Below, piece by piece: positions 18,417 through 43,629 of a stretch of 50,636 nt of DNA. Position numbers and translations under genes: made by a program. The stretch comes from Escherichia phage vB_EcoM_50EP. Numbering within the stretch: position 1 is the first letter of the stretch; every line of letters begins with the position of its first letter. The stretch lies in sequence record OR472545.1. The stretch is one strand, 5' to 3'. The notes under the pieces were generated by a model, which worked only from the letters and a program-made list of their open reading frames with translations, did not search any database and was not told the DNA's origin.

Positions 18417-18875
18417 ATGCCACACGTAATCACTGGTCAGATCCGCAAAGCCCCATACACCAAAGAAGGCAGCAACAACAACGGTCGTTGGAAAATGTAC
18501 GCCGTTGAACTGTCAGAACGCATGAAGATTCGAAATCAAAATGGGGAGGATGAGACGGTTTACAGTAACTACCGCGCCACGTTCTTCGCAAAAGAAAACG
18601 TTATGCAGTGGTATGATGAAGCGTTCCAGGAAGGTAAGGTTGTATCAATTTCTGCCGACACGCTTCACCTGGCGTCACGCCAGGGTAATGACGGCACGGT
18701 GTATGTAACCGCCGAAATGATCCGGCCTCAGTTGCAATTCAGCCAGCGTGAACCAGCGCAGCATGGACAAGGTCAGCAACAACAACGCCAACAGGCTCAG
18801 CAACAGCAGCAACAACGCCAGCCTCAGCAGCAACCGAATCAATCAATGCAATTCGACGATGACATTCCTTTCTGA
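18417..18875 (+). CDS. ssb: single-stranded DNA-binding protein
   Basis: Gln-rich linker and canonical acidic C-terminal tip FDDDIPF. Confidence 0.75.
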   Translation: MPHVITGQIRKAPYTKEGSNNNGRWKMYAVELSERMKIRNQNGEDETVYSNYRATFFAKENVMQWYDEAFQEGKVVSISADTLHLASRQGNDGTVYVTAEMIRPQLQFSQREPAQHGQGQQQQRQQAQQQQQQRQPQQQPNQSMQFDDDIPF

Positions 18876-32936: not shown

Positions 32937-32979
32937 AATATACAGGAAAAGCCCCGAAGGGCTTTAGCAATTCGTGCTA
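32937..32979 (-). promoter_or_regulatory. TAGCAC-box promoter cassette (minus)
   Basis: rc: TAGCACGAATTGCTAAAG ... GCCCTTCGGGGC hairpin ... TATATT ... CATCGAAACGAAAC. Confidence 0.45.
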
Positions 32980-33489
32980 TCTTCCATGGTTTTCATGAAA
33001 ACCAAGCCTTGCATTGGCTGACATTCTCATGCATACAGCCTCAAACCAATCTTTTGACGTTCCGAGCTTTATATTTCTCCTTTTTCCACCATCCTTTATC
33101 TCAACCTGAGCCAGCCAAGTGTTTCTATCAGACCTCCACACAACGCCGCACACGCCGCTTTTGTTTAGTGGGCTTTTGCTGAAATTTCTACAATTTCCAG
33201 ATCTGGAAACAAGCCTGTGATTGCTGTCGGAATTGTCATCTCTTATGTGATTTATGTGATCAACCTCCATCCCCTCTGGTATCACGCCGTGCCTCATCTC
33301 CCAAATTATTCTATGATGAGGGTGGCATACTCCGTTAACCTCAGAATAAAGGTATCCATTCATTACATATCCTGCTAAATCGCCAGGTCTTATCTGATTA
33401 TTTCCTCTAATCCAAAAAAGCCTGTCATTCACTAGTTCAAAATGCTTTGTCCAGTCATTACTTATTGCTTTCATAAATCGCTCTCGCAA
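32977..33489 (-). mobile_element. HNH homing endonuclease with AP2-like DNA-binding domain
   Basis: HRIIWEMRHG ... VDHINHIRDDN ... N HNH pattern followed by GVCGVVW...W.A...GK AP2-like segment. Confidence 0.6.
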
Positions 33490-34126
33490 AACCTTCCGGT
33501 GTTAATGAGCGGAGTACCTTTGTCTTTGCAGACTTTCCGCCGCAGTATTTCCAGGCCCAGAAGAATCCAATGCTCTCAACTGGCTTTTTAATAGGTTCAA
33601 CAAATCCATTGCCACACCAAATGCAAGTCTTTTTATTGTAAGCATTACGAGTGGGCATTCTTGGGTGATAAACATCATCGTGATCAACGTAACCGCCATA
33701 ATCGCAAGGATTGAAATAGAAGTCAGGCTTACGCCACAGGCTTGACAGTTTGCCTACAGGATTCTCAACCATCCATGGGGCATTAAAGTGATTGCCGACT
33801 TCTTCGACTAACTTCGCGTTAGCCAGAGCATACGCCAGTTCATCTTCCCCGCGCTCATGCTGTGATCCAGACTGAGAGAACAGCGTGCAATCAGGAAAGC
33901 CGATAACCATTTGCGCCGGAGGCAGGCCGAGCAATTCACACTTATTGATGAAATCCTTGTCAATCCACATGTTGACGTAGTGGATGTTCTCATGCTTCAT
34001 CTTGATGTGATATTCGCCATGATTGCCGGAGTCCGCGTTGAAGCAGTAGACGGTGTGACCATCTTCCGCCCATGGGAGGCCAGCAATACCAGAACCGTCG
34101 AACAAGCAGTAAATTACCTTTTTCAT
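33458..34126 (-). CDS. putative DNA (cytosine-5) methyltransferase-like protein
   Basis: FDGSG (motif I-like), GFPDC..FSQSG (PC motif-like), ENPVG (ENV-like); short at 222 aa so uncertain. Confidence 0.4.
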   Translation of the reverse strand: MKKVIYCLFDGSGIAGLPWAEDGHTVYCFNADSGNHGEYHIKMKHENIHYVNMWIDKDFINKCELLGLPPAQMVIGFPDCTLFSQSGSQHERGEDELAYALANAKLVEEVGNHFNAPWMVENPVGKLSSLWRKPDFYFNPCDYGGYVDHDDVYHPRMPTRNAYNKKTCIWCGNGFVEPIKKPVESIGFFWAWKYCGGKSAKTKVLRSLTPEGFARAIYESNK

Positions 34127-34544: not shown

Positions 34545-34760
34545 TTAGAACGGGATTCCGTCATCAAATTTTAAGCGGTAGTCGAAATCATCCCCGATCC
34601 CGTCTACTGACTGGTTGCTTTCGCTTTCCAGATCCATATCCATAACGCCCAATGCGTCATCGAGTTCGATGCATCCGTAAGCAACCTTGATCGCCCACTC
34701 TTCATTGAGTCCGGCTTCAAGTGCCGCGCGGTGGCGGCTCCAGAAATTATCTTGATGCAC
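34545..34760 (-). CDS. small acidic protein with SSB-like C-terminal tip (FDDGIPF)
   Basis: 71 aa; C-terminus DDFDYRLKFDDGIPF resembles SSB tail FDDDIPF of this phage's own SSB. Confidence 0.45.
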   Translation of the reverse strand: MHQDNFWSRHRAALEAGLNEEWAIKVAYGCIELDDALGVMDMDLESESNQSVDGIGDDFDYRLKFDDGIPF

Positions 34761-34762
34761 TG

Positions 34763-34987
34763 TTAGCTCCAGGAATTGATGTAAAGTGAGTTATCGTTTA
34801 ACAGGTTGACCATCTCAGCACGGGTAAGGCTACGGATGATTGATCCTGGATGAGTGCCAACAACGTAGCGGTCGAACTCACGGCGCGTAATGGTGATTTG
34901 GCTTACGCCTGCGGCGCGGTCCAGCTTGACGATTGCACGGCCTTTTGCTTCGATGTGTGCTACTACGTTCTGAGCTTTAACTGACAT
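34763..34987 (-). CDS. hypothetical protein
   Basis: 74-aa ORF after cassette. Confidence 0.4.
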   Translation of the reverse strand: MSVKAQNVVAHIEAKGRAIVKLDRAAGVSQITITRREFDRYVVGTHPGSIIRSLTRAEMVNLLNDNSLYINSWS

Positions 34988-35275: not shown

Positions 35276-35458
35276 TTACATGTGTTTCATGTAGAAAGCG
35301 ATTTCACGGATGTTGTCCTCTGGATGAGCCTTCACGACTACCGCGAACATCTTCTCAACCAGCGACTTGGTGCTCTCAGGGTTGTAACCTTCCTGGACCA
35401 GCATGGCGATAGTGTTTTCGATGGTAACTGGTGAGTTCTTGTTGATGCGCTTAGCCAT
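35276..35458 (-). CDS. hypothetical protein
   Basis: 60-aa ORF after cassette. Confidence 0.35.
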   Translation of the reverse strand: MAKRINKNSPVTIENTIAMLVQEGYNPESTKSLVEKMFAVVVKAHPEDNIREIAFYMKHM

Positions 35459-42996: not shown

Positions 42997-43629
42997 ATGG
43001 CTAAAATTATCATTCTCAACGGTCCAGCTTCGGTTGGTAAAGACACGATCGGCAACGCGCTCGCAGCGGATTACAACTGCATCCCTACCAGCTTCAAGCG
43101 TCCGATGTTTGAGATTGCAGCATCAATCCTTGGTGCCAGGGCTTTCTCAAAGTTCATCACCGCATACGACGACCGCGATCAGAAAGAGCAGCCTCAGAGC
43201 TTTCTCGGTGGCAAGACCTGCCGTGAGTTCATGATCTGGATTAGCGAAACAGTGGTCAAGCCGCTTTTTGGCAATCAGCAGTTCGGCAAATTGATGAGCG
43301 AGCATATCCAACTGTGTGATCAAGGTTTCTGTTTTGTGTGTACTGATGGCGGCTTCCCTGATGAAGTGATCCAACTCCTTGAAGATGGTCACGATGTCAC
43401 CCTGGTTCGCCTGTTCATGGATGGCAAGACTTTCGATGGCGATAGCCGTGATTACATTCGTCTTAAGGAATTGTACTACCCTTATTACAAGAAATATAGC
43501 GAGCATGATGTGCATCTGGTGAATGGTGATATTTATGGCGGCGTCCTGGCGGTTGCTGAGGCTTGCGGTATTAGCTCACAAGTTCCAGAGGTTGATGTTT
43601 ACGAGTGGGAAGATGGATTACCATGGTAA
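42997..43629 (+). CDS. P-loop kinase (nucleotide or polynucleotide kinase-like)
   Basis: Walker A GPASVGKDT at residues 9-17; about 210 aa; adjacent to HAD phosphatase. Confidence 0.45.
   Translation: MAKIIILNGPASVGKDTIGNALAADYNCIPTSFKRPMFEIAASILGARAFSKFITAYDDRDQKEQPQSFLGGKTCREFMIWISETVVKPLFGNQQFGKLMSEHIQLCDQGFCFVCTDGGFPDEVIQLLEDGHDVTLVRLFMDGKTFDGDSRDYIRLKELYYPYYKKYSEHDVHLVNGDIYGGVLAVAEACGISSQVPEVDVYEWEDGLPW

What the first reader, a model, noticed from the sequence alone, without database searches (positions are those of the whole stretch)
34545..34760. Small acidic protein ending in an SSB-like C-terminal tip (FDDGIPF)
The phage SSB (18417..18875) ends in QFDDDIPF, the conserved tip through which bacterial SSBs recruit partner proteins (established for E. 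coli SSB). The 71-aa ORF on the minus strand ends in DDFDYRLKFDDGIPF but is too short for an OB fold. It could mimic the SSB tail to compete for or hijack host SSB-interacting proteins such as RecQ, ExoI or PriA, a plausible anti-defence or replication takeover function.
Basis: partly seen in the sequence, partly recalled or inferred. Interest (0 to 1): 0.65.

Follow-up and report, generated by a model that had tools for sequence, protein, structure and literature searches.

The report
Small phage protein carrying SSB-like tail
A 71-residue, very acidic early protein of a T1-like coliphage ends in nearly the same seven residues that SSB uses to recruit DNA-repair and replication enzymes. That ending is kept across hundreds of related phages, so it is probably a docking tag; its partner is still unknown.

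Summary
ORF 34545..34760 (-) encodes a 71-aa protein (net charge -12) ending FDDGIPF. The phage SSB (18417..18875) ends FDDDIPF.

The ORF belongs to an uncharacterised phage-only family (phrog_9085/9323; T1 ST6). About 500 of about 900 T1-like phage records carry it, in the early operon leading to the DUF3987 helicase.

The protein has a roughly 47-aa three-helix domain and then a disordered tail. Linkers are unalignable, either acidic or CxC..CxxC. Even so, about 92 of 94 short members end in hydrophobic-Pro-Phe/Trp. Pro70 is invariant in a 48-sequence alignment, and the tip codons differ between phages.

What the tip does remains inferred.

The best reading is a two-module adaptor or inhibitor whose tip plugs into pockets that receive the SSB tail. 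Caveats:
- Some members have basic or Cys residues before the tip.
- Some members end IPFW.
- Each phage's SSB keeps an SSB-type acidic IPF tip while the small protein's tip varies.

Similar tails also sit on this phage's dNMP kinase (EWEDGLPW) and on an unrelated Sd1 protein. This suggests a portable address tag. No published precedent was found.

The parts
34545..34760 (-). Whole ORF, 71 aa plus stop; member of phrog_9085/phrog_9323; orthologue of phage T1 ST6 (YP_003939.1)
34620..34760 (-). N-terminal domain, residues 1-47. Predicted three helices. Conserved core AGLN..W..KVA.....L..ALG.MDMD.ES. Net charge -8.
   Evidence: AF2 helices 6-15, 20-27, 33-46 with pLDDT 73-79 (similar). Invariant or near-invariant A13, G17, L18, V26, A27, L33, A36, L37, G38, M40, E45. 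The same module occurs in longer phage proteins without the tip.
34569..34619 (-). Variable, predicted disordered acidic linker, residues 48-64 (SNQSVDGIGDDFDYRLK)
   Evidence: pLDDT 45-55. Not alignable between subfamilies; replaced by a CxC..CxxC module in many homologues.
34548..34568 (-). C-terminal tip FDDGIPF, residues 65-71; SSB-Ct-like docking motif
   Evidence: 6 of 7 identical to FDDDIPF of the phage SSB and of E. coli SSB (PMC10143822). Family-wide x-P-[FW] end. Codons differ from those of the SSB tip at 6 of 7 positions.
34767..34770 (-). GGAG ribosome-binding site, 6 nt before the GTG start. The upstream gene's stop (34763-34765) lies 2 nt from the start, so translational coupling is likely.
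   Evidence: read directly
18417..18875 (+). Phage SSB (phrog_44), the comparator. Its tip FDDDIPF lies at 18852-18872.
42997..43629 (+). dNMP-kinase-like protein (phrog_139) with a roughly 20-aa C-terminal extension ending YEWEDGLPW. This is the third acidic plus hydrophobic-Pro-aromatic C-terminus in this genome.

Best explanation
The ORF encodes an early, cytoplasmic, strongly acidic two-module protein. A small helical N-terminal domain is joined by a disordered linker to a C-terminal short linear motif (FDDGIPF-COOH) that copies the SSB C-terminal tip. The tip most likely inserts into the hydrophobic and basic pockets that normally receive the SSB tail. Such pockets occur on host genome-maintenance proteins (chi of Pol III, DnaG, PriA, RecQ, ExoI, RecO and others) and possibly on phage proteins that also read SSB tails, such as the SSAP. 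The N-terminal domain would supply a second, specific contact. The protein would then act either as an adaptor that tethers its N-domain partner to an SSB-tail receptor, or as a bipartite inhibitor of one such receptor. Competition with SSB would be a by-product. I lean to recruitment or adaptor function, because the same kind of tail is attached to an enzyme in this phage. Shown here: the motif, its position, its conservation under synonymous change, the modular architecture, and the early-operon context. Inferred: that the motif binds SSB-tail pockets, the identity of the partner, and the consequence.
For: The tip matches the SSB tip at 6 of 7 residues, including the Phe172-equivalent (PMC10143822 states that IPF is the part seen bound in the ExoI and RecO crystals and is required for function). 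About 92 of 94 short members end x-P-[FW]. Of 23 full-length short representatives at 50% identity clustering, 22 do so. One close relative ends DDDIPF and others end DEIPF or NEIPF. FDDEIPF is a natural SSB tip (PMC13490951). Pro70 is invariant in 48 sequences while the linker is unalignable. Tip codons vary between phages (ATT/ATA/ATC, CCC/CCG/CCA/CCT, TTC/TTT). The tip is not a recent DNA copy of the SSB 3' end. The tail is predicted disordered, as SSB tails are. The N-domain is an independent module that also occurs with other C-terminal modules. The gene sits in the early operon with the DNA methyltransferase and the DUF3987 helicase, and keeps that position even in the most distant member. 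The T1, Sd1 and Opt-817 records annotate no DNA polymerase, so these phages must engage the host replisome; this last step is inference. Portable tails of the same type occur on the dNMP kinase and on Sd1 gp60. Precedent: the T7 gp4 tail (DTDF) binds T7 DNA polymerase as the gp2.5 SSB tail does (PMC12339929).
Against: Many members lack the acidic run before the tip: five residues with mean charge +1 in the FPF group, and a CxxC directly before IPF. Seven of 94 members end IPFW or VPFL, which would move the terminal carboxylate that SSB-tail pockets are understood to recognise (own knowledge). Eleven end in Trp, which I do not know from natural SSB tips. In all five genomes examined the phage SSB keeps an SSB-type acidic IPF tip (FDDDIPF in four, FEDDIPF in Sd1), while the small protein's tip differs between phages of the same host species. 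That fits a partner that varies between phages at least as well as it fits a conserved host pocket. The gene is absent from some T1-like phages such as Sd1, so it is accessory.
Confidence: 0.45

Rival explanations
1. The x-Pro-Phe/Trp tip is a docking tag for a phage-encoded hub that is not an SSB-tail pocket of the host. Candidates are the DUF3987 helicase, the primase, the Erf-like SSAP or the exonuclease. The resemblance to SSB-Ct in the window's lineage would then be partial convergence.
For: The tip varies (IPF, IPW, FPF, IPFW) among phages that infect the same host species, while each phage's SSB keeps an SSB-type acidic IPF tip. Trp-ended tails (EDGLPW, ADDIPW) occur on other phage proteins: the dNMP kinase and Sd1 gp60. 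Phage SSAPs are known to read SSB C-termini (PMC13490951).
Against: The window's version matches the SSB tip at 6 of 7 residues, and relatives end DDDIPF or DEIPF. No co-varying phage partner was identified. The adjacent genes differ between phages.
Confidence: 0.2
2. The acidic tail binds the DNA-binding cleft of an SSB (host or phage), as SSB tails themselves can do in cis. The protein would thereby modulate SSB loading or unloading on ssDNA.
For: Net charge is -12 and pI 4.05. The tail is acidic and ends in an aromatic residue, like T7 gp2.5, whose tail was modelled starting in its own DNA-binding groove (PMC12339929). The phage encodes its own divergent SSB.
Against: The acidic character of the tail is not conserved across the family (Cys-rich and basic variants), whereas the Pro-aromatic end is. 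Nothing links the N-domain to SSB.
Confidence: 0.1
3. It is a small acidic DNA-mimic or anti-restriction/anti-nuclease early protein of the Ocr / gp5.9 type. The C-terminal motif would serve something incidental, such as stability.
For: It is very acidic and small, and lies in an early operon next to a DNA methyltransferase. gp5.9 is a precedent for a small acidic phage inhibitor of RecBCD (PMC9836394, listed).
Against: This does not explain why the last three residues are the most conserved part outside the helical core. There is no sequence or fold similarity to any known mimic.
Confidence: 0.1

Closest known systems
C-terminal tip of bacterial SSB (SSB-Ct, DFDDDIPF), which docks SSB-interacting proteins
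   Same: Extreme C-terminal position. F-D-D-x-I-P-F sequence (6 of 7). Preceded by a disordered, acidic segment. Pro and the terminal aromatic residue are the conserved core.
   Different: The carrier has no OB fold and no sign of ssDNA binding or tetramerisation. Across the family the acidic run is dispensable, Trp can replace Phe, and an extra residue can follow Phe.
Acidic C-terminal tail of the T7 gp4 helicase-primase, which resembles the tail of T7 SSB gp2.5 and binds T7 DNA polymerase (DTDF peptide in PDB 6P7E, as cited in PMC12339929)
   Same: A non-SSB phage protein carries an SSB-like acidic tail ending in an aromatic residue and uses it as a docking element.
   Different: In T7 the receptor is the phage's own polymerase and the carrier is a large enzyme. 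Here the carrier is a 71-aa protein with no recognisable activity, and the motif copies the host-type SSB tip.
phrog_9085 / phrog_9323 (phage T1 ST6, YP_003939.1), function unknown
   Same: Full-length HMM match (6e-36). Same position in the early operon.
   Different: No difference in kind. T1's own copy ends DDYIPW rather than DDGIPF.
Small acidic phage inhibitors of host DNA enzymes (T7 gp5.9, Ocr)
   Same: Size, charge and early expression.
   Different: No homology or fold match. Those proteins act as folded DNA mimics, not through a C-terminal linear motif.

Membership tests
phrog_9085 / phrog_9323 (T1 ST6-like small early proteins) | Significant full-length match to the family HMM | tested here: met
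   phrog_9085 E=6e-36 over residues 1-71; phrog_9323 E=6e-23 over residues 1-48. 56% identity to T1 ST6 over 71 aa.
phrog_9085 / phrog_9323 (T1 ST6-like small early proteins) | Location in the early operon upstream of the DNA methyltransferase and DUF3987 helicase of T1-like phages | tested here: met
Single-stranded DNA-binding protein (OB-fold SSB) | OB-fold ssDNA-binding domain | tested here: not met
   71 aa. No Pfam, NCBIfam or PDB-sequence hit. AF2 predicts only three helices.
Single-stranded DNA-binding protein (OB-fold SSB) | Acidic C-terminal tip ending IPF | tested here: met
   FDDGIPF versus FDDDIPF
SSB-Ct-type docking motif (functional class, not a homology family) | Motif at the extreme C-terminus with a free carboxylate on the aromatic residue | tested here: met
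   Met in the window protein and in most members. Seven of 94 members end IPFW or VPFL instead.
SSB-Ct-type docking motif (functional class, not a homology family) | [IL]-P-F core | tested here: met
   IPF in the window and in 65 of 94 members; otherwise IPW, FPF, LPF, VPF, EPF, TPF and one ISF.
SSB-Ct-type docking motif (functional class, not a homology family) | Acidic residues immediately upstream | tested here: inconclusive
   Met in the window (DDFDYRLKFDDG). Not met in the Cys-rich or basic subfamilies (CKRCFPF, CRECIPFW).
SSB-Ct-type docking motif (functional class, not a homology family) | Lies in an intrinsically disordered segment | tested here: met
   pLDDT about 45-60 and no secondary structure after residue 47 in two AF2 runs. 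This is a prediction only.
SSB-Ct-type docking motif (functional class, not a homology family) | Binds the SSB-tail pocket of an SSB-interacting protein | not testable with these tools
   No complex prediction or binding assay was available.
DNA-mimic anti-restriction / anti-nuclease proteins (Ocr, ArdA, gp5.9) | Sequence or fold similarity to a known mimic | tested here: not met

The most novel reading that the evidence does not exclude
T1-like phages use SSB-tail-like C-termini (acidic, then hydrophobic-Pro-Phe/Trp-COOH) as a portable address label. The label sits on a dedicated small adaptor protein (this ORF), on a dNMP kinase and on other proteins. It plugs phage factors into the host SSB-interactome or replisome hub that the phage, which has no polymerase of its own, must take over. 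If so, linear-motif mimicry of the SSB tail is a general viral strategy rather than a property of SSBs.
Probability: 0.3. Interest if true: 0.8.

Novelty: new variant of a known kind. Interest (0 to 1): 0.62.

Why it matters
The SSB tail is the central docking signal of bacterial genome maintenance and is a drug target. A natural, widespread phage protein that carries this signal without being an SSB would show how a virus taps or blocks that hub. It would provide a ready-made probe or inhibitor scaffold. It would also assign a testable function to a family present in hundreds of therapeutic-candidate T1-like phages. The portable tails on a dNMP kinase hint at replisome-coupled nucleotide supply, analogous to the T4 dNTP-synthetase complex.

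Tried and rejected
Fold and homology searches for the N-domain gave nothing:
- Pfam and NCBIfam.
- A PDB profile search.
- Foldseek against PDB, best E=4.2.

A deeper 48-sequence alignment did not improve the AF2 model.

Test: does the small protein's tip co-vary with the phage SSB tip? It does not. The SSB tip is FDDDIPF in four genomes and FEDDIPF in Sd1.

Test: was the tip copied recently from the SSB gene? Rejected, because 6 of 7 codons differ.

Searches for bacterial or prophage homologues failed:
- The search for related loci on genome contigs would not run with the alignments and found nothing with P0072.
- A degenerate ALGDMDMD DNA pattern gave 86 hits, all unrelated. Most look like the antisense frame of another conserved gene.

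IMG/VR gave only 3 related loci. A scan for the WEDGLPW tail found only Sd1 itself plus one chance match.

Two long repeat proteins from the representative search (P0046, P0054) are spurious low-complexity hits.

Literature searches found no paper describing a non-SSB small phage protein with an SSB-Ct tip. The library covers open-access papers only.

Motifs considered from memory and rejected on the sequence pattern:
- The beta-clamp-binding motif (no Q, no L-x-L-F).
- The FtsZ C-terminal peptide DIPAFL (different spacing).
- An OMP or DegS-type C-terminal aromatic signal (no signal peptide, acidic cytoplasmic protein).

Full report
**1. The observation**

The window is a T1-like (Drexlerviridae) coliphage genome. 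It is 93-96% identical over this region to phages TH21, CJ19 and XT34.

ORF 34545..34760 on the minus strand starts with GTG and encodes 71 aa ending ...DDFDYRLKFDDGIPF. A GGAG lies 6 nt upstream of the start, and the stop codon of the preceding gene lies 2 nt upstream. The ORF at 18417..18875 (+) matches the SSB family phrog_44 and ends QFDDDIPF.

The last seven residues of the small protein match FDDDIPF at 6 of 7 positions. E. coli SSB ends DFDDDIPF (PMC10143822). From the window's own amino-acid composition, 4e-4 ORFs ending D[DGE]IPF are expected among 573 stop-to-stop segments.

**2. The family**

There is no Pfam or NCBIfam match. The protein matches phrog_9085 over its full length (6e-36) and phrog_9323 over residues 1-48. 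Both are of unknown function.

tblastn finds it in 457 phage records, including phage T1 itself (ST6, YP_003939.1). A Klebsiella-phage member used as query finds 501 records. About 900 records carry the T1-type DUF3987 helicase. The gene is therefore common but accessory. Shigella phage Sd1 lacks it.

In every context examined the gene lies in the early operon that runs through a DNA methyltransferase and HNH genes to the DUF3987 helicase. In the most distant tip-bearing member (P0070) it is the first gene of that operon. No homologue was found in bacterial genomes.

**3. Architecture**

The protein has net charge -12 and pI 4.05, and the family median pI is the same. The conserved core is AGLN..W..KVA.....L..ALG.MDMD.ES.

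This N-domain also occurs in longer phage proteins that lack the tip. One set is phrog_4823 proteins on myovirus-like contigs. Another is fusions to a Zn-ribbon module, phrog_3786. It therefore behaves as an independent module.

**4. Conservation of the tip**

I collected 105 proteins from three searches. Of the 94 short members, about 92 end in x-Pro-Phe/Trp:

| C-terminal end | Members |
|---|---|
| IPF | 65 |
| IPW | 11 |
| IPFW | 6 |
| FPF | 5 |
| LPF | 2 |
| VPF, EPF, TPF, VPFL | 1 each |
| ISF (no Pro) | 1 |

- Among 23 full-length short representatives of clusters at 50% identity, 22 keep the Pro-aromatic end.
- In a 48-sequence alignment with 36% mean column identity, Pro70 is one of only five invariant columns.
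- The linker between domain and tip cannot be aligned between subfamilies. It is either acidic or a CxC-x5-6-CxxC module placed directly before the tip.
- Tip codons differ between phages: ATT/ATA/ATC, CCC/CCG/CCA/CCT, TTC/TTT. Selection therefore acts on the amino acids.
- In the window, 6 of the 7 tip codons differ from those of the SSB tip. The resemblance is not a recent DNA copy.
- One close relative ends LDDDIPF, and others end DEIPF or NEIPF. FDDEIPF is a natural SSB tip in other bacteria (PMC13490951).

**5. What fits SSB-tail mimicry and what does not**

Points that fit:
- The C-terminal position.
- The IPF core, which is the part seen bound in the ExoI and RecO crystals and is required for SSB function (PMC10143822).
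- The upstream Phe and Asp residues in the window's lineage.
- The disordered context.
- T1, Sd1 and Opt-817 annotate no DNA polymerase. These phages must therefore engage host replication proteins (inference).

Points that do not fit a simple decoy:
- The five residues before the tip have mean charge +1 in the FPF group and often include two Cys.
- IPFW and VPFL ends shift the terminal carboxylate.
- Trp replaces Phe in T1 and others.
- In the five genomes examined the SSB tip is FDDDIPF in four and FEDDIPF in Sd1, while the small protein's tip differs between phages of the same host. A receptor that varies between phages is therefore a serious alternative. Phage SSAPs are already known to read SSB tails (PMC13490951).

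**6. Portable tails**

The same scan showed a third such terminus in the window. The dNMP-kinase-like protein (42997..43629, phrog_139) ends VYEWEDGLPW.

The tail is a roughly 20-aa extension. It is absent from the T1 and Opt-817 homologues and present in about 20 relatives. In P817 and TH27 it reads DEWADDIPW and DDDWADDIPW.

An unrelated 111-aa protein of phage Sd1 (gp60) ends TYEWEDGLPW. Its homologue in another contig has no tail.

At least four unrelated proteins of T1-like phages therefore carry acidic hydrophobic-Pro-aromatic C-termini. A tail on an enzyme argues for targeting rather than inhibition. This is why I lean to an adaptor or recruitment role for the small protein.

T7 offers a precedent. 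The gp4 helicase-primase tail (DTDF) binds T7 DNA polymerase, and the tail of the SSB gp2.5, which also ends in Phe, does the same (PMC12339929).

**7. Verdict**

The finding is real and the key conservation test is passed. The mechanism is inferred: docking into SSB-tail receptors, with an independent N-domain giving a second contact. I give this 0.45 confidence. The rivals are:
- a phage-specific receptor (0.2);
- modulation of SSB itself (0.1);
- an acidic DNA-mimic role (0.1).

I found no paper describing such a protein. The library covers open-access literature only. I rate it a new variant of a known kind: linear-motif use of the SSB tail on a non-SSB carrier.

Noticed in passing
window 42997..43629 (+): The dNMP-kinase-like protein (phrog_139, P-loop GPASVGKDT) carries a roughly 20-aa C-terminal extension ending YEWEDGLPW. 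Homologues in P817 and TH27 end ADDIPW. The T1 and Opt-817 homologues (190 aa) have no tail.
   Followed up: partly
L019:601-936 / L022 40957..41292 (Shigella phage Sd1 gp60, ATE86126.1): An unrelated 111-aa protein (C-terminal part of phrog_2452 / 'ATPase' phrog_17613) ends TYEWEDGLPW. This is the same nine-residue tail as on the window's kinase. Sd1 lacks the ST6-like gene, and its SSB ends FEDDIPF.
   Followed up: partly
window 34620..34652 (-), residues 37-47 (LGVMDMDLESE): ALG(D)MDMD.ES, at the end of helix 3, is the most conserved stretch of the whole family. It is kept even in long relatives that lack the tip. It may be a second acidic interaction motif and is unexplained.
   Followed up: no
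homologues P0039-P0049, L005, L006, L008 and others: Many family members have a CxC-x5-6-CxxC module, a likely zinc knuckle, immediately before the Pro-aromatic end in place of the acidic linker. Webervirus and Yersinia-phage members end IPFW.
   Followed up: partly
P0063, P0066, P0077 (L011, L012); P0071, P0072 (L010): The N-domain occurs inside 160-310-aa phage proteins without the tip. One group is phrog_4823 proteins next to baseplate genes on myovirus-like contigs. The other is fusions to a Zn-ribbon module (phrog_3786; precomputed Pfam hit Phage_Mu_gp6).
   Followed up: partly
window 34763..34987 (-): The upstream 74-aa gene (phrog_4344, T1 ST5-like) stops 2 nt before the GTG of the small protein, so translational coupling is likely. 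This neighbour is not conserved in all phages.
   Followed up: no
window 32977..33489 (-) and 33458..34126 (-): An HNH endonuclease ORF (PF13392) overlaps the 3' end of the DNA methyltransferase gene by about 30 nt within the early operon. In the phages examined, HNH genes occupy different positions in this operon.
   Followed up: no
window 18417..18875 (+): The phage SSB has no Pfam SSB hit. It is recognised only by phrog_44 and by weak NCBIfam matches over its Gln-rich linker and tip. It is a divergent SSB with a perfectly host-like tip.
   Followed up: no
window 35276..35458 (-): A 60-aa early ORF matches Pfam DUF7421 (7.7e-10) and phrog_7717. Its function is unknown.
   Followed up: no
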